Positions 1 through 12,083 of a stretch of 32,000 bases of DNA are shown in pieces. The DNA is from Corynebacterium glutamicum ATCC 13032 (GTDB lineage: Bacteria > Actinomycetota > Actinomycetes > Mycobacteriales > Mycobacteriaceae): contig NC_003450.3 in assembly GCF_000011325.1 (NCBI RefSeq), positions 2,850,001 to 2,882,000 on the forward strand, written 5' to 3'. Positions within the stretch are counted from its first letter, which is position 1, and every line of letters starts with the position of its first letter. The position numbers and the translations under genes are program-made. The notes beneath the pieces were generated by a model. The model ran no database searches and was not told where the DNA came from. It worked only from the letters and a program-made list of their open reading frames with translations.

Positions 1-31
1 AATCAACCGCCCGGACGATCTCCCCGAGGTC

Positions 32-1819
32 ATGGATGTTCTCATCGTTGGTGCAGGTCCGGCTGGCACCATCGCAGCGGCTCAGCTTTCCCGATTCCCC
101 AATGTGACCACCCGCCTCGTAGAGAGAAGCGACCGTCGCCTCGAACTAGCCAATGCAGATGGCGTGCACTCCCGAACCATTGAAACTTTCCAGGCATTTG
201 GTTTCGCCCACGAGATCCTCGCCGAAGCTCATGAAATCACCGACATGGCGTTCTGGAAGCCGGACCCGCAAAACCCTCGTGAGATCATTCGCGACAACAG
301 CACCCGCGAGCTGCCACAGCACATCAGTGAATTTCCGATGGCGTTGCTCACCCAGACCCGCATCATCGACCACTTCAACCGGTTCATGAAGAACTCCCCA
401 ACCAGGATGAAGCCTGACTATGGATACGAGTTCGTGGACTTTGAAGTAGAAGAAGACGCAGAATATCCGGTAATTGTCACCCTCCGCCGCACCAGTGGCG
501 AGCAAACTGGCGAATTGGTCACCGTCCGCACCAAGTACCTGGTCGGTGCCGATGGTGCACGAAGCCAAGTGCGCAAATCACTGGGATACCGACTCCAAGG
601 TAAGCAGGCTAACCACGCTTGGGGTGTGATGGATATTCACGCGAACACCGAGTTCCCCGACGTGCGCAAGAAGTGCACCATCAAATCTGATTCGGGTCGC
701 ACCATCTTGCTCATCCCACGTGAGGGTGGCTTCCTCTTCCGTCTCTACGTTGACCTGGGCGAAGTACCTGATGATGGCAGCAAGGCTGTTCGTGATACCC
801 CACTCCAGGATGTCATCGACACCGCGAACCAGATCATGGCTCCATTCACCCTCGACGTGAAAAACGTTGTGTGGAACTCCATCTACGAGGTAGGCCACCG
901 CGTCGCAGACCATTTCGATGACCGTGTTTCAGAAAAAACCTCGAGCGAACACCCACGCATTTTCATTGCTGGCGACGCCTGCCACACCCACAGCGCTAAG
1001 GCTGGCCAGGGCATGAACGTGTCCATGCAGGACGGATTCAACCTTGGCTGGAAGCTTGGACATGTGGCCAGCGGAAATAGCCCACGCGAACTACTTCAGA
1101 CCTACGCTGAAGAGCGCGAAGACATTGCCTACAAGCTCATCGAGTACGACAAGAACTGGTCAACACTCATGGCAAAGCCAAGCAGCGAAATGGGCAGTGC
1201 CCAAGACCTTGAGGATTTCTACCGCGCGAACTCTGAGTTCAATGCCGGCTACATGACCCACTATCCTCCTTCTTCCATCACAATGGATGGCAGCAACCAA
1301 GATCTGGCAAAGGGCTACCCAATTGGCCGACGCTTCAAGTCAGCGATGGTTGGTCGAGTCTGCGACTTCACCGAAACACACCTCGGTCACCAAGCAACAG
1401 CCGACGGACGCATGCGCGCATACGTCTTCGCAGGATCCGATGCACTTAACGGCGAGGGTTCTGAGCTAGACCGCTGGGCAGAATGGGCAGAGGCGAACCT
1501 TGACCCCACGCTTGTCGACGCCAAGGTGATTTACCAAAGCCCTTATACCGAGCTCGACACCCGCCAGGTTCCATCCGTGTTCAAACCTGCAGTCGGGATC
1601 TTCGAACTGACCAATGTGGAAAACTCCTTCGGTATCACCACGGACTCCGACATCTTTGATAGTCGCGAGATCTCCCGCGATGGTGTCGTGGTGGTAGTCC
1701 GACCAGACCAATACGTTTCCGGAATCTTCCCACTCACTGATACCCAAGGGCTTGGCGAATTCCTCACCGGATACTTCCCCAAAATGAAAGGCGCACATCA
1801 GCTAATCAACGCGAACTAA
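32..1819 (+). CDS. FAD-dependent aromatic-ring hydroxylase, phenol 2-monooxygenase (PheA/TfdB-type) family; true N-terminus may lie upstream of the window
   Basis: 595-aa ORF with the VLIVGAGPAG dinucleotide-binding fold at the N-terminus. It also has LVGADGARSQVR, the IFIAGDACHTHSAKAGQGMNVSMQD FAD-contact motif, and a C-terminal extension with VVVVRPDQY as in long phenol hydroxylases. The frame is open from base 2 (INRPDDLPEV precedes the ATG), so the start is uncertain. Confidence 0.85.
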   Translation: MDVLIVGAGPAGTIAAAQLSRFPNVTTRLVERSDRRLELANADGVHSRTIETFQAFGFAHEILAEAHEITDMAFWKPDPQNPREIIRDNSTRELPQHISEFPMALLTQTRIIDHFNRFMKNSPTRMKPDYGYEFVDFEVEEDAEYPVIVTLRRTSGEQTGELVTVRTKYLVGADGARSQVRKSLGYRLQGKQANHAWGVMDIHANTEFPDVRKKCTIKSDSGRTILLIPREGGFLFRLYVDLGEVPDDGSKAVRDTPLQDVIDTANQIMAPFTLDVKNVVWNSIYEVGHRVADHFDDRVSEKTSSEHPRIFIAGDACHTHSAKAGQGMNVSMQDGFNLGWKLGHVASGNSPRELLQTYAEEREDIAYKLIEYDKNWSTLMAKPSSEMGSAQDLEDFYRANSEFNAGYMTHYPPSSITMDGSNQDLAKGYPIGRRFKSAMVGRVCDFTETHLGHQATADGRMRAYVFAGSDALNGEGSELDRWAEWAEANLDPTLVDAKVIYQSPYTELDTRQVPSVFKPAVGIFELTNVENSFGITTDSDIFDSREISRDGVVVVVRPDQYVSGIFPLTDTQGLGEFLTGYFPKMKGAHQLINAN

Positions 1820-1836: not shown

Positions 1837-1880
1837 AGTGGACGTTCTGCTCAAATTAAGCAGAATGTCCACTTCTGTCT
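1837..1880 (+). terminator. Probable intrinsic terminator of the monooxygenase gene
   Basis: 15-nt arms agtggacgttctgct (1837-1851) and agcagaatgtccact (1859-1873) with one G-U pair and a 7-nt loop caaatta. They are followed by a weak T-rich tail tctgtct, 18 nt after the stop codon. Confidence 0.55.
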
Positions 1881-1960: not shown

Positions 1961-2017
1961 ACCTGCAAGGTGCGCTGGTGGGAAGCGTCGACAAGCATCT
2001 TTAAGTAGCGTTGATGT
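1961..2017 (+). promoter_or_regulatory. Leader/promoter copy 1 of the paralog genes (57 bp, repeated at 5739-5795)
   Basis: 51/57 positions are identical to 5739-5795 by hand alignment, and the element ends exactly at the ATG. It contains an acc-tgcaa-ggt dyad, a GTCGAC site and a TAAGTA -10-like hexamer 12 nt before the ATG. No Shine-Dalgarno sequence is visible. Confidence 0.5.
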
Positions 2018-3736
2018 ATGCGCTCACTTCAATCGGTCCTTGACCTGCTGACTTCTAAGTCCAAAGTGGCTACCAAAATTGTGGTGGAACGAATTGAAAA
2101 GCATCCTGTTCATGGATTGGGATGGATGATGTATCCGCCATTTCATCCATGGACTGATGCTTCGACCTTGACGATTGAGCGAAACGGAACCAGTCGGCGC
2201 GCGAGTCAGAATGGCGTTGCGGTTCTTCATCAGCATGAGCAAGTTCAAACTATCGGTCTAGCCAGCTATTTTATCGACTCCAAGATTTGGGTAAACGAGC
2301 TGGCTGGCCTTGATCGTATCAACATTTCTGAGAGTGAAGTTGCTGGTCGTGACGTATTAGTTCTGCCGTTATCTGATCTGACTTTAAGCATCGATGCGAA
2401 ATACGGCGTGGTTTTGGCTGCGGAAGACAGCGATGAATCAGTGCGCGCGGTATCCGTGGAGTTCCTGGACCAGTGGGTAGATGAAGAAGAACCCCCAGCG
2501 GAAGAAGTGCCTAAATATACGGAAACCAGGGAGGAACTTCCTCCACTTGAGATTCCTCCGGCTCCTTCCGGAAATCGTAATCTCCGAGTTCTGTGCACGT
2601 GGGGAGCGATGGAAGGAATTATTCCTGAGTGGAAACCCGGCGATCAAGTTTCACTGTTTTTGTCTTTCGACCTCGACGATCCGCCGTTCGAACAGCTCAA
2701 AACCACTCGTCGCGGGTACACCGAACCTGGCGAGATTTATGGAAACCAGCGCAGCTATAAATTTCACGCTGATGGTTGGAACGCTGTTATTTCCGCCAAA
2801 GTGCCACTGCGCACCGAAGAAAACCTCACCGGCTACTTCACCCACAGCTCCTACGCGGACACGAGCCGCCGCACGTCAGCGGTCATCACCGCAGTCTACC
2901 GCCACGGTAAGGACGCAATTATCGACGTGACCCTCGACGGTGCGAAACCTCCTAGATATCAAGAATCCTTGGATTGGAGCAGCACCAGTACCTGTGACGG
3001 TGAAACAATCTGGCTGTCCGATAAGAGCTTGCCCTTCGTCCGCGGTTTCAATGTCTCCACAGGCAAGCTAGTACACGAGATCTCCATACCCACCTTCAAT
3101 GAGATCGCCCTCGAATCCGGCAATAGAGCCCGCGCAGCGAAAAAACTTTGGGAACTTCCAGATCTTAAAGAGGCAACCGACCCTGTCCCAGCGATCCCCG
3201 CGGGCTGGAAACTACACAAAAGATTCGGGAAAAACTTCCATATCGTAAGCGCTGACAACGGAACCTGGAAACAAACCATCCTTAGGATCAAACCCTTCAA
3301 AGCAATTGAGCTTGATCTTGGATACGCCAAGATTTCGACGATTTACCAATACGGTGAACGAATTTATCTGCGTTCCGATCTTCACCAGATCACGTTTAAT
3401 CAGGATCTTGAAATCCTCAGTGTAGAGGTCCACGGAAATCCCGATGCAGGTTATTGGCCACTTTCCGATCTTCCACCAGGGGATTCTCCAACGCTGGGAT
3501 TTCCTATCGGATCACTCATGATGTTCCACGAACAACAAGATATCTACGCTTTCCACGATCCTAAAACAACAAAGCAACTAACAACTGTGAACTTGCCCAA
3601 AAGGCAGTTTGAAGTGGAATATGCTTCTCAGAACAGAATTGTTATTTCGCTGAAAAATCCAGAAAGCCGCCTCATTGACAAACTGTTGGTGTGGGAACCA
3701 CAAACCAGGTGGCGGGAACAAAACCTGGAGAGCTGA
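2018..3736 (+). CDS. Uncharacterised protein, paralog A of a tandem triplet (572 aa)
   Basis: Long ATG-initiated ORF that aligns end to end with ORF 5796-7520. It shares an ordered motif series with ORF 3770-5713. No signal peptide, TM segment or known catalytic motif was recognised. Confidence 0.85.
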   Translation: MRSLQSVLDLLTSKSKVATKIVVERIEKHPVHGLGWMMYPPFHPWTDASTLTIERNGTSRRASQNGVAVLHQHEQVQTIGLASYFIDSKIWVNELAGLDRINISESEVAGRDVLVLPLSDLTLSIDAKYGVVLAAEDSDESVRAVSVEFLDQWVDEEEPPAEEVPKYTETREELPPLEIPPAPSGNRNLRVLCTWGAMEGIIPEWKPGDQVSLFLSFDLDDPPFEQLKTTRRGYTEPGEIYGNQRSYKFHADGWNAVISAKVPLRTEENLTGYFTHSSYADTSRRTSAVITAVYRHGKDAIIDVTLDGAKPPRYQESLDWSSTSTCDGETIWLSDKSLPFVRGFNVSTGKLVHEISIPTFNEIALESGNRARAAKKLWELPDLKEATDPVPAIPAGWKLHKRFGKNFHIVSADNGTWKQTILRIKPFKAIELDLGYAKISTIYQYGERIYLRSDLHQITFNQDLEILSVEVHGNPDAGYWPLSDLPPGDSPTLGFPIGSLMMFHEQQDIYAFHDPKTTKQLTTVNLPKRQFEVEYASQNRIVISLKNPESRLIDKLLVWEPQTRWREQNLES

Positions 3737-3769
3737 GCACGGTTTGATTAACGTCGATAGGCTTGAGAA

Positions 3770-5713
3770 ATGGAATCCGTTGATGAACTCCTGAGTCTGA
3801 TCCGCCGAGGTGCAGCCACCACCGTGAGTATGAAACTTCAGGTGACCCGAGCTCCGAGCTCCCTTCACTTCGAGGGTGGGATGAGACCAACACAGCTCTT
3901 GAAGTACGTGAATCTAGATGGTCTAAACATCGATCGCAGCCACAGTACCTTCCACGTGCAGCAAGATGGGGCCGATGTATTACGCGGATCGGGAAACATA
4001 CGGTGGTGCTTCGAAGAAGACGATATCCCCTACGAAGTCGACGTGGATGACTTATTTATCCTCGGTGGCTTAGACAACTTCATAAATCCCCTTGGAGTGA
4101 TTGAGATAATGAATCTCCACTCCTTAGAGATTCGCCAAATTTCATCCGGCACAATTTCAGAACGAAAAACTTGGATCTTTCCCACTGCTGCTCGCTCATT
4201 CAATCAAAATCTAGTACACCCGCAAAGCATTGAAATCGATGCACAAACCGGCGTTATTTTGGCTATGGAAAACCGACTACAACGTACCGAAGTTGAATCA
4301 GTAGAGTACCCAACGGATCTTCCTAATCCTGCATGGACAGGTCCAGCCATTTCTTGGCCACTAAAAGACCCATCAATCGATTTCCCTGACCCGCTCCCCC
4401 ACAGCATTTCCGAATTACCACCTCAATCCGATAATCCTCGGCATTTGCGAGTATCCATCAGCTTAGATGCAGTGGAAGGTGCTTTTCCGCGCTACCGGAT
4501 CGGAGATTCAATACGTATTCCGCTTGTCTTTGCCCGGGACACGCCCTTCATGTCCGGCTTAGAAACAACACGTCGCGCCTGGATTGAGGCGGCCACGGAA
4601 ATGGACATCCATAACACATGGCCCATAATCCTCACCGGTGACGGCTGGACTGCACTCTCTCATTCAGACAAACCAATACGCCACGAAGCCGAGTTAAAGG
4701 GATGGTTTTTCCACAGTTTGTTCGGCAGTGAAATGCCCTTGACTGATCTGAAGATTGAACGAATCTACGGAGGCCTGGGTACTTTCGACAGCGGAGCCAC
4801 CCGGTGGCAAGAACTCACAGACACAGATGATGCCTACACAGAAAATGGCAGCTGGCTGTTGGAAGTTATCGTCGATGCCACCCTTGACGGTGCAATTCCA
4901 CCACCACTTCAGCCACAACAGTTTGAAGCATCCATCACTCACATCGTCGATGAGCAACTATGGGTCCTTGGGCAGATGCTTCCAGTTCTACGATGCTGGG
5001 ATCTTGAAACCGGAAAATACCTGGGGCAAACCTATGTACCTATTTCGGTTTCTCATAGTTCTCGGCTTCAGTTTTCGGAAGGGTTGATTCACGATTATGA
5101 AAATGCCTGGTCGCTGAATCCTGGGGTGCGCATGCTTGCGGAGCCACAGCCGTGGATAGAGCCTGTCATAGAACTCGACGTTCCAGCGCCATGGGAATTA
5201 CAAGAAAGCTTCCCCGATGGGCTTTACTCCCTAACTGATGGAGAGCAAACAGCACTGGGTCGAAGCACTCCAGCAGGACAATTGGAAATCTGTGTAATCA
5301 GCAATGACGGATCCAGGATCTTAAACGCAGGCCGAGTAGAAGACCTGTACTTTGTGCAATTCTGGGGCATGACCGTCTTTTTGAATTCCAACTTTCAAGT
5401 GCAAAGTGCCGAAGAACATCAGCTTGGTGCGAAACGTGAACGCTGGATTACACAAGAAGGCGTAGCTGCCAAGTTCACCGAAGAAGATGAAATCGTATTC
5501 CTCGATCAGATATCTGGAAGCGAAATAACCAGGTGGAAAACACCAGAAGGATACTTCACTGAGGTCAGAATTCTGTCACCAAACCACTTCAACATACTGG
5601 TTACTCCGCCTACTGGTTCTGACTATCTCAAACCAGTACCTTCCTCTGTCTCAGTGTTTAGAGACGGTCAATGGAGCAACATTAAATTCGAGGACGTCTC
5701 TGTAGAAATCTAG
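3770..5713 (+). CDS. Uncharacterised protein, diverged paralog B of the triplet (647 aa)
   Basis: Begins 33 nt after paralog A. Shared collinear motifs include IEIDAQTGVILAMEN, NPRHLRVSI, LETTRRAWIE, GDGWTAL, LKGWFFH and IVDATLDGAIPPP. Confidence 0.8.
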   Translation: MESVDELLSLIRRGAATTVSMKLQVTRAPSSLHFEGGMRPTQLLKYVNLDGLNIDRSHSTFHVQQDGADVLRGSGNIRWCFEEDDIPYEVDVDDLFILGGLDNFINPLGVIEIMNLHSLEIRQISSGTISERKTWIFPTAARSFNQNLVHPQSIEIDAQTGVILAMENRLQRTEVESVEYPTDLPNPAWTGPAISWPLKDPSIDFPDPLPHSISELPPQSDNPRHLRVSISLDAVEGAFPRYRIGDSIRIPLVFARDTPFMSGLETTRRAWIEAATEMDIHNTWPIILTGDGWTALSHSDKPIRHEAELKGWFFHSLFGSEMPLTDLKIERIYGGLGTFDSGATRWQELTDTDDAYTENGSWLLEVIVDATLDGAIPPPLQPQQFEASITHIVDEQLWVLGQMLPVLRCWDLETGKYLGQTYVPISVSHSSRLQFSEGLIHDYENAWSLNPGVRMLAEPQPWIEPVIELDVPAPWELQESFPDGLYSLTDGEQTALGRSTPAGQLEICVISNDGSRILNAGRVEDLYFVQFWGMTVFLNSNFQVQSAEEHQLGAKRERWITQEGVAAKFTEEDEIVFLDQISGSEITRWKTPEGYFTEVRILSPNHFNILVTPPTGSDYLKPVPSSVSVFRDGQWSNIKFEDVSVEI

Positions 5714-5738
5714 GGCTTTCGACGCTTGAGCCCCGCGC

Positions 5739-5795
5739 ACCTGCAAGGTGCGCTGTAGGGAGGCGTCGACAAGCATCTTTAAGTAGCTTTGAAGC
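5739..5795 (+). promoter_or_regulatory. Leader/promoter copy 2 (upstream of paralog C)
   Basis: 89% identical to 1961-2017. It is preceded by and overlaps a perfect 7-5-7 palindrome gcgcacc-tgcaa-ggtgcgc (5735-5753). Confidence 0.5.
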
Positions 5796-7520
5796 ATGCG
5801 TTCCTTTCAATCGATCCTTGACCTGGTAAATTCAGCATCCGAGGTGGCTACCAAAATTGTGTTGAAGCGCTTCGAAAAACGGATAACCAGCGAAACTGAC
5901 TGGGTACCGTATCAGCGGTTTAGTCTTTGGTCGGTTGGTTCTCCGCTAACGATCGAACGCAAAGGCCCCGATGTGCGTGTGAGCAAGGACAACACTGCCG
6001 TTCTTCAGCGCTATCAAAGACCGGAAGCAGAAGGACTGATCAGCTACTTCATGGATCCAAAGCCATGGATAACTGAATTGGCAGGCCTGAATCTGGACGA
6101 TGTTTCCGAAGATACAGTTGCAGGTCGGACAGTATTAGTGGTTCCCCTATCCAATGTCATTCTCAGCATCGATGCGGAATTTGGGATGATTCTAACTGCG
6201 GAAAACGACATAGAAAAGATCCACGCAATATCTGTCGAACTCTTAGAAAAATGGAGATCATCCCATTACCCTGAGCCGCATTTTCCTGCAGCGGTTCTCC
6301 CACCTGCGTCGACTGGAAACCGCAACCTCCGAGTTCTATGCCCTGAGTTTTCCATTCCAAGTGTCAACGTTGGTGATCAGGTTTTACTATTTTTAACATT
6401 TGATCAAACCCTGCCACCAGTAGATCAGCTTGAAACTACTCGCCGCGGATACACTGATCCAATCCAGCTTGACTACGACCACCGCCAATACAGGTTTCAC
6501 GCCGACGGTTGGGATGCCATCATCTCCACGGTGGAGCCACTACACGACGAAGAAGAACTCACAGGTTACTTCCTGCACCGCCTTGACCCAGATAGCGCGT
6601 ACCCAACCATTGCAGTCGTTACAGCAGCGCACTACCACGGTACGGACGCAATTATCGACGTGACCCTAGATGGTGTGCATCCACCCAAAAACCAAGAAAC
6701 TCTTGAAGGCATCAGCACTAGTACCAGTGACGGTGACATATTTTGGCTCTCCGATGAAAGCTTGCCTTTCGTCCGTGGATTCAGCGTGTCAACAGGCGAA
6801 CTATTACACGAGATCTCCATCCCCACGTTCCAAGAGATCGTCCTCGATTCCGCTAATAGAGCCCGCGTAAAACAAAAGCAATGGCCTCACGATTTCAGTG
6901 ATTGCAAGGGAAAAACATGGGAGCTTCCGGATCTTAAAGAAGTATTCGAAGCTGTCCCTTCGATTCCAGCAGGTTGGAGATTGTTAGACAGCTTCGGGAA
7001 AAACTTGCACAATGTCACACGCGAAAACCCTCGTCTTAATGACAACTTTTGGCTTCAAACAATCCTTAGGCTTAAACCATTTAAAGCAGTAGATCTTGAT
7101 ATCGGCCGATCGATAATCACAGCAATTTACCCATACGGTGATCGAATTTACTTACGCGCTAGTAACCACCACATCACGTTTAACCAGGACCTCGAGATTC
7201 TCAACGTAGAAGTCTTTGGCGACCCTGAGGTTCCCGAATCTGGTCTAATTTATCTTCCACCTGGGGATTCTCCAACACTCGGTTTTCCCACCGGAACACT
7301 CATGATGTTTCATGAGCAAGAAGGCACATATGCTTTCCACGACCCTGAAACAACAGAACAAATAACAACTGTGAACTTAGACAGGAATAGTTTTTCAGTG
7401 GCATATTCTTCCCGAACCAAAATTGTTATTTCACTGAAAAACCCAGAAAGCCGACCTACCAACAAGCTGTTGGTGTGGGAACCACAAACCGGGTGGCGAG
7501 AACAGAACCTGGAGCGCTGA
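5796..7520 (+). CDS. Uncharacterised protein, paralog C of the triplet (574 aa)
   Basis: Long ATG ORF that is collinear with paralog A over its full length. Both end in KLLVWEPQT.WREQNLE. Confidence 0.85.
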   Translation: MRSFQSILDLVNSASEVATKIVLKRFEKRITSETDWVPYQRFSLWSVGSPLTIERKGPDVRVSKDNTAVLQRYQRPEAEGLISYFMDPKPWITELAGLNLDDVSEDTVAGRTVLVVPLSNVILSIDAEFGMILTAENDIEKIHAISVELLEKWRSSHYPEPHFPAAVLPPASTGNRNLRVLCPEFSIPSVNVGDQVLLFLTFDQTLPPVDQLETTRRGYTDPIQLDYDHRQYRFHADGWDAIISTVEPLHDEEELTGYFLHRLDPDSAYPTIAVVTAAHYHGTDAIIDVTLDGVHPPKNQETLEGISTSTSDGDIFWLSDESLPFVRGFSVSTGELLHEISIPTFQEIVLDSANRARVKQKQWPHDFSDCKGKTWELPDLKEVFEAVPSIPAGWRLLDSFGKNLHNVTRENPRLNDNFWLQTILRLKPFKAVDLDIGRSIITAIYPYGDRIYLRASNHHITFNQDLEILNVEVFGDPEVPESGLIYLPPGDSPTLGFPTGTLMMFHEQEGTYAFHDPETTEQITTVNLDRNSFSVAYSSRTKIVISLKNPESRPTNKLLVWEPQTGWREQNLER

Positions 7521-7528
7521 GCACGCTT

Positions 7529-7562
7529 AAGGTGAGGTGGCGGCGGGAGGCGTCGAGAAGCA
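7529..7562 (+). repeat. Third, partial copy of the paralog leader (orphan, downstream of paralog C)
   Basis: The segment starts with aaggtg and ends with gggaggcgtcgagaagca. The 18-mer 7545-7562 matches gggaggcgtcgacaagca of copy 2 at 17/18 positions. The element then runs into the terminator instead of a gene. Confidence 0.6.
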
Positions 7563-7606
7563 AAAAAATGGGGCAGAAAGTCAATGACCTTCTGCCCCAT
7601 TTTTTG
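7562..7606. terminator. Bidirectional intrinsic terminator between paralog C (+) and the MFS gene (-)
   Basis: Perfect 11-bp stem atggggcagaa (7568-7578) / ttctgccccat (7590-7600) with an 11-nt loop. It is flanked by A7 on the left and T5-6 on the right, so it reads as hairpin plus U-tract on both strands. Confidence 0.85.
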
Positions 7607-7610
7607 GTAT

Positions 7611-9056
7611 TTAGTGAGCTTCTTCCTCGACGCGAGTGACGAAGAGGGAAACAACCAAAGCGATCACCGCGATGATTGCGCCTGCGATGAACGCAACCTT
7701 GGTACCAGCGGCAACAGCTTCAGCATGCGCAGATCCCGAAGACGCTGCAATGGAAGTGCCGAAGGAAAGTGCTGCAATCATGATCGCTGTTCCGGCTGCG
7801 CCTGCGAGCTGTTGGAACGTGTTCAAAATTGCGGAGCCGTGACCATAGAGGTGCTTCGGAAGGGCGCCGAGAGCGGTGGTCATGAGAGGGGTCATCATCA
7901 AACACATGCCGATGCTGAACACAACGTGCATGACCACGACCATCCACACGGGTGAATTCTCATTGAGGAAAGTCATCGAGGATGCCGCGATAGCCAGCGC
8001 AATTGCTCCGGGAATCAGCAGCGGACGTGGACCGACCTTGTCGTAGAAACGTCCGATGAATGGGCTGATCAGACCCTGGAGGAGGCCGCCGGGCATAACA
8101 ACCAAACCGGTCACCAAAGCAGTAACTCCGAGGGAAGTCTGCAGGTAGATTGGCAAAACCATGACGGTTCCGAGCATCGCGCCGAACGCCAAAAGGATGG
8201 TGGTCAAGGAGAAGCTGAAGTTCCTCACCTTGAAGGCTCGGAGATCCATCAGTGCTTTGTCTTGCTTGCCGAGTTGGTGCTGTCGCAAAGCAAAGATGAG
8301 GAGTGCGATGGCGCCAACGACGATCGCGAAGATACCTACGGTGCCTTCGCCCTCCAGGATTGCTCCGAAGGAACTGAAGCCGTACACCAAACCACCGAAG
8401 GCAAACACCGAAAGGATGACAGACAGAACATCCAGTGGGGTGATCTTGGTTTCGCCGATATTTTTGATCAAGAAGAAACCAATTACCAAAGCGATAACAA
8501 CGATCGGAAGCATCATCCAAAACAACCAGTGCCAGGTCAAAGAGTTAAGAATGACACCAGACAACGTAGGACCAAGCGCCGGCGCAACAGAAATCACGAT
8601 GGAAATAATGCCCATCATCGAACCACGACGCTCCGCAGGAACCACCGTCAACGTAACCGTCATCAGCAAAGGCATCACCAGCGCAGTACCAACCGCCTGA
8701 ACGATACGAGCACCAAGCAGCACCGCAAACGTTGGAGCCAACGCCGCAGTCAACGTACCAACCGTAAAGAACAACAACGCAGTAACAAAGATCGTCTTAG
8801 TGGAAAAACGATCAAGCAGATAACCAGTAGTTGGAATCACCACTGCCATCGTCAACATAAAGCCAGTGGTCAACCACTGTGCAGTAGTTTCAGGCACGGA
8901 GAAATCTTCCATGATGGAAGGCAACGCAACCGACAGAATGGTTTCATTAAGAATCATGATCATCGCGGAAACCACGAGGATCGAAAGAACAACAACGACC
9001 TCCCTAGGCAGCTTCGCAGCTGCCGGAGAGGTCTGAGTATTAATTTGGGAATCCAT
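7611..9056 (-). CDS. lmrB: MFS drug:H+ antiporter, DHA2 (EmrB/QacA, 14-TMS type) family; resembles the lincomycin-resistance pump LmrB of C. glutamicum
   Basis: 481-aa polytopic protein, hydrophobic throughout, with an MFS motif-A-like GYLLDRFSTKTIF after TM2. The size and N-terminus fit the corynebacterial LmrB as I recall it. The symbol is tentative. Confidence 0.8.
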   Translation of the reverse strand: MDSQINTQTSPAAAKLPREVVVVLSILVVSAMIMILNETILSVALPSIMEDFSVPETTAQWLTTGFMLTMAVVIPTTGYLLDRFSTKTIFVTALLFFTVGTLTAALAPTFAVLLGARIVQAVGTALVMPLLMTVTLTVVPAERRGSMMGIISIVISVAPALGPTLSGVILNSLTWHWLFWMMLPIVVIALVIGFFLIKNIGETKITPLDVLSVILSVFAFGGLVYGFSSFGAILEGEGTVGIFAIVVGAIALLIFALRQHQLGKQDKALMDLRAFKVRNFSFSLTTILLAFGAMLGTVMVLPIYLQTSLGVTALVTGLVVMPGGLLQGLISPFIGRFYDKVGPRPLLIPGAIALAIAASSMTFLNENSPVWMVVVMHVVFSIGMCLMMTPLMTTALGALPKHLYGHGSAILNTFQQLAGAAGTAIMIAALSFGTSIAASSGSAHAEAVAAGTKVAFIAGAIIAVIALVVSLFVTRVEEEAH

Positions 9057-9192: not shown

Positions 9193-10146
9193 TTAGGCGG
9201 CTTGCTTGAGGTGCTCAGGTGGGGTCTTCTGCAAAGTGTTTTTGAGGATTCCGATGAACTCACACTCCCCATCTTGGTTGAGGTCTAACTGTTTCGGATC
9301 GATTCTTAAGACCGCATAGCCCTGATTGAGGAAGAATTTCTCCCGATCGCGTTCAGCCATGAGCACCTCATTGAGCTCCGGGGAATCATATTTCGAACGT
9401 CCATCAATCTCCACGATGATCCACTCATTGATCAAGAAATCGACGAGGAAATACTTGTTGTGCGATTGATCGAAACGGGCCTGCACCTTCACTGACTGGA
9501 TTTCCGGGAGCTTGGCCTCCCGAAGGATTAACCGAGCCCTCGTCTCCTGAGCACTATCCGAATTGGGAATCGACAACTCAATCGCCTGCCGATACGCCTT
9601 CACACCCCGATGCCTCGGGAAACTTTCCGCACTGTGCATTAACTTCTCACGCGTAAGCGATGGATTCTGTCTTCGAGCTGAATCAATAGTGACCACAGCC
9701 GCCACCACCCCATCATCCAAAGCGATGTCCAAAAATGTGCGGAACGCTCCCGTAACTCGGATCCCATGAACCTCTCGAATATCACGCGACGAGAGGTAAC
9801 GATCTTTATATCGCATCCCGGACGGCCAATGCTTGGAGGATTTTGAACGTAGCCTTTCCGGCAACAGACACAACACGGTTTTCTCAACAGTCAAAGTTTG
9901 GTATCCCCATAACCTCGCCGCAGACTGCCCCGCTACCACTGCTTTGTCCACAGTCATACCCACTGCAAAAGCTCGGGCGGCTGCTTTATCCCATGCAGGA
10001 AGGCTTCGGTACTTTTCAGCATTGATTGCGACTTCATGAGTGAGTTTAATCATTTGACCATTACTGATTGCCGCAGAAGTCTCGGTATCGCTATGCAGAA
10101 GTTTCGTGAGATTGACTAGTTGGAATTCTTCTTGCCAGTTTTTCAT
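9193..10146 (-). CDS. Hypothetical protein with C-terminal DUF559 / Vsr-like endonuclease-fold domain
   Basis: 317-aa ATG ORF. The C-terminal pattern FLVDFLINEWIIVEIDGRSKYD...ERDREKFFLNQGYAVLRI is typical of DUF559-type domains that are common as paralogs in Corynebacteriales. The N-terminal part is of the AbiEi/HTH-like type (weak call). Confidence 0.7.
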   Translation of the reverse strand: MKNWQEEFQLVNLTKLLHSDTETSAAISNGQMIKLTHEVAINAEKYRSLPAWDKAAARAFAVGMTVDKAVVAGQSAARLWGYQTLTVEKTVLCLLPERLRSKSSKHWPSGMRYKDRYLSSRDIREVHGIRVTGAFRTFLDIALDDGVVAAVVTIDSARRQNPSLTREKLMHSAESFPRHRGVKAYRQAIELSIPNSDSAQETRARLILREAKLPEIQSVKVQARFDQSHNKYFLVDFLINEWIIVEIDGRSKYDSPELNEVLMAERDREKFFLNQGYAVLRIDPKQLDLNQDGECEFIGILKNTLQKTPPEHLKQAA

Positions 10147-10502: not shown

Positions 10503-12083
10503 CTACTTTTGTTCTGGTTTCACCATTGGGAAGAGTACGGTTTCGCGGATTCCGAGGCCGGTGAGGGCCATGAGGAGGCGGTCGATTCCCATGCCGTTGC
10601 CGGAGGTTGGTGGCATGCCTTGTTCCATTGCGGTGAGGAAGTCTTCGTCGAGGACCATGGCTTCGTCGTCTCCGTCGGCGGCGAGGCGGGCTTGGTCTTC
10701 GAAGCGTTCGCGTTGGATGACTGGGTCGATGAGTTCGGAGTATCCGGTTGCTAGTTCAAATCCGCGGACGTAGAGGTCCCACTTTTCGGTGACGCCTGGC
10801 TTGGTGCGGTGTTGGCGTGTGAGTGGGGAGGTTTCTACTGGGAAGTCTTTGACAAAGATTGGTCCGTAGAGTTGGTCTTCGCAGAGGAGTTCCCAGATTT
10901 CTTCGACGAGTTTGCCGTGTCCCCAGCCGCCGTTTTCGGGGACGGAGAGGCCGATTACCTTGGCGATTTCGCGGAGTTCTTCGACGGTGGAGTCGATGGT
11001 TACTTCTGGTTGTCCTGGGAATTTGCGTGCGAGGGCTTCGTTGAGGGAAGGGTACATCTCGATGACTTTCCACTCGCCGCCGAGGTCGTATTCGGTGCCG
11101 TCTGCGAGGGTGACCAGGGTGGTTCCGAAGACTTCTTGGGCGACGGATTGGACGAGACCCTTGATCAGTTTCGCGCCGGTTTCGTAGGTTCCCCAGGCTT
11201 CGTAGGTTTCGAGCATGGCGAATTCTGGGGAGTGGGAGGAGTCGACGCCTTCGTTGCGGAAGTTGCGGTTGACTTCGAAGACGCGCTCGATGCCGCCGAC
11301 AACGCAGCGCTTGAGGTAAAGCTCTGGTGCGATGCGCAGGTAGAGGTCAATGTCGAGGGCGTTGGAGTGGGTTTCGAATGGTCGTGCTGCTGCGCCACCG
11401 TGGAGGGTTTGCAGCATGGGGGTTTCTACCTCAAGGAAGTCTTGGTCTTCGAGGTAGTGGCGGAGTGCACGCATGACCTTGATGCGGGTGAGCGCGTTGG
11501 TGCGGGCTTGTTCGCGCATGATGAGGTCGGTGTAGCGGTGGCGGACGCGGGTGTCTTCGCTGAGGTCCGCGAATGCGACTGGCAGTGGGCGCAGGGACTT
11601 GGAGGCCATGTGCCAGGAGTCAGCCATCACGGAGAGTTCGCCACGCTTGGAGGAGATTACTTTGCCGCGGACGGAAACGATGTCACCCATGTCCACATCG
11701 GCTTTCCAGGCCTTGAGGGATTCTTCACCGACTGCTGCCAGGGACAGCATTGCTTGGACGGTGGTGCCGTTTCCTTCTTGGATGGATGCGAAGCAGAGCT
11801 TGCCGGTGTTGCGAACGAACATGACGCGGCCAGCGATTGCGACCTCAACGTCGGTTTCTTCGCCTACTTCGAGGTAGGTTACGCCTTCTTCGCGCTCTTG
11901 GAGGTCTTCTGTAATGACAACAAATTGGGAGCGCAGGTCAGAGATTGAGATGGTGCGATCAACCTCGACTGGGTAGGCGTCCAATCCACTGTCCAGAATG
12001 CGCTCGCGCTTTTCGCGACGAATTCGCAGCTGCTCAGGCAAATCGGCGGAATTGTTCTTGGAAGTGGGATTGGAATTAGTCAC
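10503..12083 (-). CDS. lysS: Lysine--tRNA ligase, class II
   Basis: 526 aa with a GTG start preceded by AGGAAA. It has an N-terminal OB-fold region and class II motifs ([16 protein letters not shown]). Confidence 0.95.

What the first reader, a model, noticed from the sequence alone, without database searches (positions are those of the whole stretch)
2018..7520. Three tandem, collinear paralogs (572/647/574 aa) of no family I can recognise: the best candidate for an undescribed system
Seen: ORFs A (2018-3736), B (3770-5713) and C (5796-7520) lie on the same strand with gaps of 33 and 82 nt. A and C align end to end, roughly 60% identical by eye (MRSLQSVLDLL / MRSFQSILDLV at the start, KLLVWEPQTRWREQNLES / KLLVWEPQTGWREQNLER at the end). 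B is far more diverged and about 75 aa longer but keeps the same ordered motif series (A / C / B): LSIDAKYGVVLAAED / LSIDAEFGMILTAEN / IEIDAQTGVILAMEN; GNRNLRVLC / GNRNLRVLC / NPRHLRVSI; GDQVSLFLSF / GDQVLLFLTF / GDSIRIPLVF; LKTTRRGYTEP / LETTRRGYTDP / LETTRRAWIEA; HADGWNAVIS / HADGWDAIIS / TGDGWTALSH; LTGYFTH / LTGYFLH / LKGWFFH; IIDVTLDGAKPP / IIDVTLDGVHPP / IVDATLDGAIPPP; IWLSDKSLPFVRGFNVSTGKLVHEISIP / FWLSDESLPFVRGFSVSTGELLHEISIP / LWVLGQMLPVLRCWDLETGKYLGQTYVP. None of the three shows a signal peptide, TM helix, P-loop, HTH or catalytic signature that I recognise. Hand GC counts on single 60-nt lines give 24/60 (4081-4140) and 27/60 (4141-4200), against 34/60 inside lysS (11161-11220). The block therefore looks AT-richer than the housekeeping genes, although these are spot counts only. 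Inference: this is a multi-domain cytoplasmic protein family that expanded locally (an old A/B split and a younger A/C duplication). Such a pattern is typical of accessory, conflict-type or niche-specific functions rather than core metabolism. I cannot assign a function.
Basis: partly seen in the sequence, partly recalled or inferred. Interest (0 to 1): 0.75.

Follow-up and report, generated by a model that had tools for sequence, protein, structure and literature searches.

The report
Three paralogs of an orphan protein family
Three neighbouring Corynebacterium glutamicum genes encode related soluble proteins from a tiny, unnamed family found only in Corynebacterium and its close relatives; their predicted shape hints at a lipid-sensor-like module joined to a propeller-shaped docking domain, but their function is unknown.

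Summary
ORFs A (2018-3736), B (3770-5713) and C (5796-7520) are intact, co-oriented paralogs: A/C 56% identical, A/B and C/B 24%. A/C dN/dS is about 0.24, and RNA-seq shows two cg-tagged genes mapping to this block are transcribed. GC3 is 0.47-0.51, against 0.55-0.75 in most neighbours. No Pfam, NCBIfam, PADLOC, PHROGs or PDB sequence match exists. An exhaustive HMMER scan of 1.84 billion representatives found 68 relatives; all those with names are Mycobacteriales.

AlphaFold models (pLDDT 75-78) give three all-beta domains. Residues 1-322 match only RseB/MucB significantly (Foldseek E 1e-7, TM about 0.3), then weaker LolA-fold proteins. The C-terminus is a generic beta-propeller. The middle domain holds most invariant residues and is a sub-threshold DUF6578 relative. 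No signal peptide, TM segment or catalytic motif is present.

The "conflict system" reading is not supported. There are no defence or phage matches. The locus is syntenic beside lysS in several species, with one to three (four counting a second site) copies, and GC3 tracks each host genome.

My best guess, at low confidence, is a non-catalytic cytoplasmic ligand-sensing adaptor. It is a real, undescribed family of moderate interest.

The parts
2018..3736 (+). Paralog A (572 aa, A-type). From AlphaFold secondary structure the domains are: N domain aa 1-150 (nt 2018-2467), Pro/Glu-rich low-confidence linker aa 151-185, middle domain aa 186-310 (nt 2573-2947), propeller about aa 320-572 (nt 2975-3733).
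   Evidence: ORF; family HMM 629 bits; models m1c5149957c01 and me72e52ea5215; exact protein present in many C. glutamicum assemblies.
3770..5713 (+). Paralog B (647 aa, B-type, ancestral form). It has extra segments in the N domain and a roughly 40-aa insertion in the middle domain. It starts 33 nt after A and is probably co-transcribed with it.
   Evidence: 821 bits; insertion shared with distant short forms.
5796..7520 (+). Paralog C (574 aa, A-type), 56% identical to A.
   Evidence: dN/dS 0.24; 551 bits.
1961..2017 (+). Conserved upstream element of A, containing the exact blocks CCTGCAAGGTGCGCTG (1962-1977) and GCGTCGACAAGCATCTTTAAGTAGC (1985-2009). It ends 8 nt before the ATG and no obvious Shine-Dalgarno sequence is visible.
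   Evidence: 89% identical over 57 nt to the element before C, while synonymous sites differ at 61%. The 25-mer recurs with 3 mismatches at the same spacing before the A-type gene of C. crudilactis.
5739..5795 (+). Second copy of the upstream element, before C. It includes the perfect palindrome GCGCACCTGCAAGGTGCGC.
1837..1873 (+). Strong hairpin after the phe (phenol 2-monooxygenase) stop codon. It is the likely terminator separating phe from A.
   Evidence: RNAfold gives -29.1 kcal/mol for 1820-1885. RNA-seq shows phe is induced by indole but cg2968 and cg2969 are not.
7563..7605 (.). Bidirectional intrinsic terminator between the convergent genes C and lmrB: 21-nt arms flanked by an A-run and a T-run.
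   Evidence: Inverted repeat I1, 95% complementary; fold -39 kcal/mol for 7521-7612.

Best explanation
A, B and C are three functional, vertically inherited paralogs of a small unnamed protein family restricted to Mycobacteriales.

Shown: each encodes a soluble, acidic (pI 4.6-5.4), 65-73 kDa, almost entirely beta protein with three domains. (1) An N-terminal helix-plus-sheet domain. (2) After a Pro/Glu-rich linker, a small beta domain that carries most of the family's invariant residues: RxLR, TTRRG, DGW, GxF and DxTLDG. (3) A C-terminal beta-propeller, of about six blades by my count of the predicted strands. Domains 1 and 2 together resemble the two-domain lipid-sensing regulators RseB/MucB, which combine a LolA-fold domain with a small partner-binding domain. 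Domain 2 is a remote, sub-threshold relative of DUF6578.

Inferred mechanism: these are non-catalytic cytoplasmic adaptors or sensors. The LolA-like half-barrel binds a hydrophobic ligand. The conserved Arg/Asp-rich middle domain and the propeller hold one or more partner proteins. A-type and B-type copies either have different ligand or partner specificities or assemble with each other. A and C each carry their own copy of a conserved upstream element, B probably rides on A's transcript, and the block is transcriptionally separate from phe and lmrB.
For: Intact and constrained: complete ORFs; A/C dN/dS 0.24 with dS 1.27. cg2968 and cg2969, two of the cg2967-cg2970 tags that cover this block (my mapping, from phe=cg2966 and lmrB=cg2971), are transcribed, with RNA-seq base means of about 820 and 1130.

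Family size and range: only 68 hits at E<=1e-3 among 1.84e9 representatives. Named members are Corynebacterium, Dietzia and Rhodococcus.

Fold: models with pLDDT 77.5 and 75.4. For residues 1-322, the only PDB matches at E<=1e-3 are 8 RseB/MucB chains (1.2e-7 to 9.4e-6, aligned over 316-355 columns, essentially the whole target). VioE, LolA and EPDR1, all LolA-fold, follow at weaker E-values. The full-length model hits hundreds of beta-propellers plus RseB.

Invariant residues: in the propeller they are all W, P, G or F, with no polar catalytic candidates. The invariant charged residues R187, R190, R231, R232, D252 and D303 cluster in the middle domain.

Short relatives lacking the N domain are homologous over the middle domain and propeller (hhalign 99.5%). 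Seven of 23 of them hit DUF6578 below threshold.

No signal peptide, TM segment or catalytic motif.

A-type and B-type genes co-occur in C. glutamicum, C. crudilactis, C. gallinarum and a MAG. Regulatory layout.
Against: The RseB/MucB similarity is at fold level only. TM-scores are about 0.3 and RMSD 15-17 A, because the two domains are oriented differently. No sequence or profile method links any domain to a known family. RseB/MucB and LolA are exported proteins, whereas this family has no export signal. No sigma or anti-sigma gene lies nearby. No partner gene is conserved across lineages; contexts differ. No ligand, partner or phenotype is known, and no paper in the library discusses these genes. 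The absence of recognised catalytic motifs does not exclude an unrecognised enzyme.
Confidence: 0.35

Rival explanations
1. The proteins are beta-propeller enzymes (a lyase, hydrolase or lactonase of the Vgb, phytase-like or SMP30 kind) that modify a xenobiotic or antibiotic, working alongside the neighbouring efflux pumps and oxygenases.
For: UniRef names one Rhodococcus member 'Streptogramin lyase'. C has a weak Phytase-like PF13449 hit (E 0.012, 16 bits against a cut-off of 27.6). Neighbours are often MFS transporters (lmrB, MFS-CBS), phe, or an alkB-rubredoxin cluster.
Against: No propeller enzyme family reaches threshold. Invariant propeller residues are only W, P, G and F. cg2968 and cg2969 change by log2 +0.34 and +0.41 when phe rises by 6.1 on indole. 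The neighbour sets differ between lineages. The most conserved part of the protein is the middle domain, not the propeller.
Confidence: 0.12
2. The block is a conflict system: an anti-phage defence locus, or an array of immunity-type proteins, diversifying by duplication and recombination.
For: Tandem paralogs with low GC3. Copy number varies from 1 to 4 between species and strains. Alleles are mosaic: P0006 is 100% identical to A for residues 1-200 and then 64-78%. The C-termini of the A orthologs P0004 and P0005 are closer to C than to A. The Rhodococcus copy lies among IS elements and hypothetical genes.
Against: No PADLOC or PHROGs match. Absent from phage and viral collections. No nuclease, NTPase, protease, TIR, sirtuin or toxin domain in or beside the block. 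The position next to lysS is syntenic across species and GC3 is ameliorated to each host. Purifying selection, with no window of dN/dS above 0.35. At 570-650 aa the proteins are much larger than typical immunity proteins.
Confidence: 0.1
3. The proteins are cell-envelope (mycomembrane) factors exported by a non-classical route. They would act like the envelope proteins they resemble: LolA/RseB for lipid or lipoprotein handling and BamB for assembly scaffolding.
For: The best structural analogues (RseB, MucB, LolA, BamB) are all envelope proteins of diderm bacteria. The family occurs only in mycolate-containing Mycobacteriales. A transposon in the promoter of the adjacent lmrB (cg2971) gave an envelope phenotype.
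Against: None of about 96 relatives has a Sec, Tat or lipoprotein signal or a TM segment. The N-terminus is fixed by in-frame stops. BamB ranks high for any propeller query. The lmrB insertion does not touch A, B or C.
Confidence: 0.07
4. The proteins are AMP-forming acyl-CoA synthetases or ATP-binding proteins, as some database records label them, or else they are decaying pseudogene relics.
For: cg2969 is annotated 'similar to acyl-CoA synthetases'. P0015 and P0018 are labelled 'acyl-CoA synthetase' and P0031 'ATP-binding protein'.
Against: No AMP-binding or any other Pfam or NCBIfam domain. No Walker A motif. The predicted fold is all-beta, which to my knowledge is incompatible with the alpha/beta adenylate-forming fold. 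The ORFs are intact, under purifying selection and transcribed.
Confidence: 0.02

Closest known systems
RseB / MucB (periplasmic sigma-E pathway regulators; Pfam MucB_RseB and MucB_RseB_C)
   Same: A two-domain layout: a larger LolA-fold beta domain with an N-terminal helix, a linker, then a smaller beta domain. These are the only significant PDB fold matches for A residues 1-322 (E 1e-7 to 1e-5, whole-target alignments).
   Different: No sequence or profile similarity. TM-scores only about 0.3. No signal peptide. No adjacent sigma or anti-sigma genes. A roughly 250-aa beta-propeller is fused at the C-terminus. Found in Mycobacteriales rather than Proteobacteria.
LolA-fold superfamily (LolA, LolB, VioE, EPDR1; from memory also the mycobacterial lipoproteins LppX and LprG)
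   Same: The N domain is predicted as a helix plus an antiparallel sheet of about 10 strands. VioE, LolA and EPDR1 appear as secondary fold hits (E 2e-3 to 3e-2). VioE shows that the fold can work in the cytoplasm (my recollection).
   Different: The hits are weak and no hydrophobic cavity could be verified. There is no lipobox or signal peptide, unlike LolA and, to my knowledge, LppX and LprG.
DUF6578 (PF20218), an actinobacterial domain of unknown function
   Same: The middle domain of distant relatives matches most of the 122-position model (positions 26-121). Seven of 23 members and P0141 score 15-24 bits.
   Different: Every match is below the 27.8-bit gathering score. A, B, C and their close relatives give no hit at all. 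DUF6578 itself has no known function, so the link adds no mechanism.
Generic bacterial beta-propellers (BamB, PQQ-like, WD40-like; Vgb streptogramin lyase)
   Same: The C-terminal 250 aa are predicted as about 23 short strands in four-strand groups. Hundreds of propeller structures match.
   Different: No repeat family is detectable by sequence. TM-scores are low. The catalytic residues of propeller enzymes were not identifiable, and the invariant residues are purely structural.

Membership tests
MucB/RseB family | Sequence match to the family profiles or to solved RseB/MucB chains | tested here: not met
   No Pfam or NCBIfam hit for the full proteins or for isolated domains, even at E<=10. 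Profile searches of PDB sequences found nothing at E<=10.
MucB/RseB family | Two-domain fold: LolA-like N domain plus a small C domain | tested here: inconclusive
   Foldseek E 1.2e-7 to 9.4e-6, probability 1.00, for 8 RseB/MucB chains with whole-target alignments. However TM is 0.24-0.34 and RMSD 15-20 A, and no per-domain superposition was possible.
MucB/RseB family | Exported to the periplasm or envelope (signal peptide) | tested here: not met
   No hydrophobic N-terminus, lipobox or Tat motif in A, B, C or about 96 relatives. In-frame stops lie one codon upstream of each start.
MucB/RseB family | Genomic linkage to an ECF sigma / anti-sigma pair | tested here: not met
   No sigma or anti-sigma Pfam family within 10 kb on either side in the source genome type, or in eight other contexts.
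LolA-fold superfamily | Half-barrel with a hydrophobic ligand cavity | tested here: inconclusive
   VioE 2.3e-3, LolA 8e-3 and 1.4e-2, EPDR1 2e-2. The cavity was not inspectable because coordinates are not exposed.
DUF6578 (PF20218) | Score at or above the Pfam gathering threshold (27.8 bits) | tested here: not met
   A, B and C give no hit. The best distant relatives score 24.2 and 23.8 bits.
Beta-propeller fold | Circular arrangement of four-stranded blades | tested here: inconclusive
   817 PDB hits at E<=1e-3; of the 50 listed, nearly all are propellers (BamB, WD40), and BFVD returns WD40 proteins. DSSP shows about 23 strands between residues 323 and 569. TM-scores are only 0.2-0.35, and ring closure and blade number were not verified in 3D.
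Known anti-phage defence systems (PADLOC-DB) | Match to any defence-protein model | tested here: not met
   No families at E<=1 for A, B or C.
AMP-forming acyl-CoA synthetase (database label on cg2969 and its homologues) | AMP-binding domain and an alpha/beta adenylate-forming fold | tested here: not met
   No AMP-binding Pfam hit and an all-beta predicted structure.
Vgb-type streptogramin lyase (UniRef label on a Rhodococcus relative) | Seven-bladed propeller with conserved His/Glu/Tyr catalytic residues and a Mg site (recalled from memory) | not tested
   No profile hit to any propeller enzyme family, and the invariant propeller residues are W, P, G and F only. No direct structural comparison with Vgb was made.

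The most novel reading that the evidence does not exclude
The family is a lipid-handling or lipid-sensing device specific to mycolate-containing bacteria. An RseB/LolA-like module binds a mycomembrane lipid precursor or a hydrophobic xenobiotic, and a BamB-like propeller docks onto envelope-biogenesis or efflux machinery. It would act on the cytoplasmic side or after non-classical export. That would make it an unrecognised component of envelope homeostasis in Corynebacterium, Dietzia and Rhodococcus, with A-type and B-type subunits forming a hetero-complex.
Probability: 0.07. Interest if true: 0.8.

Novelty: new variant of a known kind. Interest (0 to 1): 0.4.

Why it matters
C. glutamicum is a major industrial organism and the standard model for the Corynebacteriales envelope. 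Even so, about 5.5 kb of its chromosome encodes three expressed, constrained 65-73 kDa proteins with no family assignment, and some records carry misleading labels ('acyl-CoA synthetase', 'ATP-binding protein'). This work defines the family: three domains, a restricted lineage range, an ancestral B-type and a derived A-type, and a conserved upstream element. That corrects the annotation and gives a concrete, testable hypothesis of a cytoplasmic RseB/LolA-like ligand sensor fused to a propeller. If the lipid or hydrophobic-ligand idea holds, it would extend the LolA/RseB sensing principle to a cytoplasmic, actinobacterial setting. If it does not hold, this remains one of many lineage-specific orphan families.

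Tried and rejected
1. Profile libraries (Pfam, NCBIfam, PADLOC, PHROGs), on full proteins, isolated domains and all alignment members. Nothing was found above threshold.
2. PDB sequence searches with profiles of the whole family and of the N-plus-middle region. No hits at E<=10.
3. Phage, viral and plasmid association. No phage or viral relatives, and two weak hits on large Rhodococcus plasmids. Recent mobile origin rejected.
4. Recent horizontal transfer as the cause of low GC. Rejected, because GC3 of family members tracks each host genome and the locus is syntenic.
5. Pseudogene relics. Rejected.
6. Co-regulation with phe or the AraC regulator. The RNA-seq supplement shows no co-induction, and a strong hairpin separates phe from A.
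7. A conserved functional partner gene. Eight contexts were examined. The MFS-CBS transporter recurs only within the lysS-syntenic clade. The ABC ATPase plus S26-like gene recurs only in the C. variabile clade. Nothing is universal.
8. Other unannotated genes of about 620-650 aa near family members. They are not family members, and the 647- and 643-aa neighbours are MFS-CBS transporters.
9. A profile search with the middle domain alone, intended to bridge to DUF6578. It returned only two proteins and no Pfam-annotated hits.
10. Literature search on cg2967-cg2970, NCgl2587-2592 and DUF6578. Nothing functional was found.
11. Promoter and terminator consensus scan of the block. Counts did not differ from shuffled sequence.
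12. Rfam and tRNA scans of the window. Nothing found.


Full report
**1. Observation**

The window is Corynebacterium glutamicum chromosome. The exact A protein occurs in many C. glutamicum assemblies, for example CP115148.1. ORFs A (2018-3736, 572 aa), B (3770-5713, 647 aa) and C (5796-7520, 574 aa) are on the + strand with gaps of 33 and 82 nt.

- A and C are 56% identical end to end.
- Windowed GC is 0.48-0.51 in the block, against 0.55-0.60 in the lysS-ftsH region.
- GC3 is 0.51, 0.48 and 0.47 for A, B and C, against 0.55-0.75 for most other genes in the window.
- The negative claims hold. There is no Walker A, lipobox, Tat, HExxH, GxSxG or CxxC motif.
- There is no TM-grade hydrophobic segment in these proteins or in about 96 relatives.
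- Each ATG is preceded one codon upstream by an in-frame stop, so the N-termini are fixed.

**2. The genes are real and functional**

Between A and C, dN/dS is 0.24 (dS 1.27, dN 0.30), and no 60-codon window exceeds 0.35.

In the C. glutamicum literature cg2966 is phe and cg2971 is lmrB. That places A, B and C among cg2967-cg2970. A published RNA-seq supplement lists two of these:
- cg2968, 'conserved hypothetical protein', base mean about 820.
- cg2969, 'similar to acyl-CoA synthetases', base mean about 1130.

Both change by only log2 +0.34 and +0.41 on indole, while phe rises by 6.1. So the genes are transcribed but not co-regulated with phe.

A strong hairpin follows phe (-29 kcal/mol). A 21-nt-arm bidirectional terminator lies between C and the convergent lmrB.

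The 57 nt upstream of A and of C are 89% identical. They contain two perfectly conserved blocks of 16 and 25 nt. Synonymous sites in the coding regions differ at 61%. The 25-mer recurs with 3 mismatches, at the same spacing, before the A-type gene of C. crudilactis. This indicates a constrained cis element and separate control of A(+B) and C.

**3. Family size and distribution**

No Pfam, NCBIfam, PADLOC or PHROGs family matches. No solved structure matches by sequence.

A profile search that read all 1.84 billion cluster representatives found only 68 proteins at E<=1e-3 and 20 at E<=1e-30. All named relatives are from Corynebacterium (glutamicum, suranareeae, crudilactis, gallinarum, hylobatis, lemuris, variabile, glyciniphilum), Dietzia or Rhodococcus.

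The distant forms of about 500 aa, including the Rhodococcus members, lack the N domain. They are still homologous over the middle domain and propeller (hhalign 99.5%).

**4. Locus evolution**

Source genome type: clpC, guaB1, AraC regulator, phe, A, B, C, lmrB(-), DUF559-like(-), lysS(-), panC and so on.

| Species | Order of genes at the locus |
|---|---|
| C. crudilactis | guaB1, a further B-type paralog, AraC, phe, MFS-CBS, A-type, B-type, lmrB, DUF559-like, lysS |
| C. gallinarum | MFS-CBS, B-type, an N-domain-less A-type, a full A-type, DUF559-like, lysS |
| C. hylobatis, C. lemuris | a single B-type next to MFS-CBS and lysS |

The B-type paralog between guaB1 and AraC is also present in another assembly. 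It is cleanly absent from the source genome.

The family is therefore an old resident of this lysS-adjacent locus, with one to three tandem copies (four counting the guaB1-AraC site). B-type is ancestral and A-type derived. A and C lack a roughly 40-aa middle-domain insertion that B-type and the Rhodococcus forms share.

GC3 of family members follows each host (0.40-0.48 in C. crudilactis, 0.61-0.66 in C. gallinarum, 0.81-0.84 in high-GC species). It always stays 0.1-0.2 below housekeeping neighbours. This argues for weak codon bias rather than recent transfer.

No relatives were found in phage or viral collections, and only two weak hits on large Rhodococcus plasmids.

**5. Structure**

AlphaFold2 with the family alignment gives pLDDT 77.5 for A and 75.4 for residues 1-322 modelled alone. 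The two models have the same secondary structure:
- Helix 4-16 plus about ten strands and two short helices (residues 1-150).
- A low-confidence Pro/Glu-rich linker (151-185).
- A nine-strand beta domain (186-310).
- About 23 short strands (323-569), consistent with roughly six four-stranded blades. The blade count is my inference from the DSSP string.

The full model hits hundreds of beta-propellers (BamB, WD40) plus RseB.

With the propeller removed, the only matches at E<=1e-3 are eight RseB/MucB chains. Their E-values run from 1.2e-7 to 9.4e-6, and they align over essentially their whole two-domain length. The LolA-fold proteins VioE, LolA and EPDR1 follow at weaker E-values. TM-scores are only about 0.3 and RMSD 15-20 A. 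That is expected if the inter-domain angle differs, but it leaves the assignment at fold-resemblance level.

Invariant residues across 26 members split by domain:
- Middle domain: R187, L189, R190, G208, L215, R231, R232, D252, G253, W254, P263, G272, F274, D303, T305.
- Propeller: only W, P, G and F.

Distant relatives give recurrent sub-threshold matches of the middle domain to DUF6578 (best 24.2 bits against a cut-off of 27.8).

**6. Interpretation**

What is shown: three functional paralogs of an undescribed, lineage-restricted, soluble, three-domain all-beta protein family.

What is inferred: an RseB/MucB-like ligand-sensing module fused to a propeller docking platform, acting non-catalytically in the cytoplasm. 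A-type and B-type copies would either be specialised or work together. I give this about 0.35.

Rivals:
- A propeller enzyme acting on xenobiotics (0.12). Supported only by a database label, a 16-bit Phytase-like hit and transporter or oxygenase neighbours that differ between lineages.
- A conflict or immunity array (0.10). Supported by copy-number variation and mosaic alleles. Contradicted by synteny, ameliorated composition, purifying selection and the absence of any defence, toxin or mobile-element signature.
- A non-classically exported envelope factor (0.07).
- The database labels 'acyl-CoA synthetase' and 'ATP-binding protein', or decaying pseudogene relics (0.02). These are effectively refuted.

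**7. Novelty and score**

The family has no name, no profile and no literature. Its architecture, an RseB-like module plus a propeller without an export signal, is not one I could match to any described family.

The folds themselves are known, no function is demonstrated, and orphan lineage-specific families are common. I therefore classify it as a new variant of known kinds and score interest at 0.4.

Noticed in passing
window 1961-2017 and 5739-5795; L006 8127-8151: A duplicated 57-nt upstream element precedes A and C. It is 89% identical between the two copies and contains exact 16-nt and 25-nt blocks plus a perfect 19-nt palindrome before C. It is far better conserved than synonymous sites and is also present before the C. 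crudilactis A-type gene. No Shine-Dalgarno sequence is visible, so it could be a promoter for a short-leader transcript, an operator or a 5'-UTR structure.
   Followed up: partly
protein P0006 (582 aa, Logan assemblies) versus window A: This is a mosaic allele. Residues 1-200 (N domain plus linker) are 100% identical to A, and the rest is 38-78% identical to A and matches neither A nor C. The breakpoint falls at the domain boundary. It could be real recombination or an assembly chimera.
   Followed up: partly
proteins P0004, P0005 (A orthologs) versus window C: The C-terminal 20-70 residues of some A orthologs are closer to C (88-94%) than to A (70-82%). This suggests gene conversion between the tandem paralogs.
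   Followed up: partly
L006 814-2784; L018 2697-4658; absent in L016 6646-6834: A further B-type paralog (653-656 aa) sits between guaB1 and the AraC regulator in C. crudilactis and in another assembly. It is cleanly absent from the source genome type, so its presence is polymorphic. This site lies just upstream of the window start.
   Followed up: yes
L001 8727-9989; L002 9974-11173; Rhodococcus L008, L009: Naturally N-domain-less forms (middle domain plus propeller only) occur as tandem partners of full-length copies in C. gallinarum and a MAG. In Rhodococcus they are the only form present.
   Followed up: partly
L010, L011, L015 (C. variabile, C. glyciniphilum, Corynebacterium sp.): In this clade the family gene is followed on the same strand, after gaps of 11-28 nt (about 256 nt in C. 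variabile), by an ABC ATPase and a Peptidase_S26-like gene. An alkB-rubredoxin-reductase cluster lies divergently upstream. In Dietzia (L012) an ABC ATPase plus permease lie divergently upstream.
   Followed up: no
window 9193-10146 (-): A 317-aa DUF559-like gene lies between lmrB and lysS. It is conserved at this position in C. crudilactis and C. gallinarum and also has low GC3 (0.55 here, 0.41 in C. crudilactis).
   Followed up: no
database records for cg2969, P0015, P0018, P0031, P0114: The labels 'acyl-CoA synthetase', 'ATP-binding protein' and 'Streptogramin lyase' have no support from any domain or motif search here.
   Followed up: yes
window 1-1819: The phe (phenol 2-monooxygenase) gene is cut by the window start. 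The ORF listed from position 32 is 595 aa, but the gene call held for the source genome type is 627 aa.
   Followed up: yes
L010 5862-6956 and L009 12745-13434: Short proteins of 364 and 229 aa near family members in C. variabile and Rhodococcus weakly match the middle-domain part of the family HMM (E 2e-6 and 6e-5). This hints at stand-alone middle-domain paralogs.
   Followed up: no
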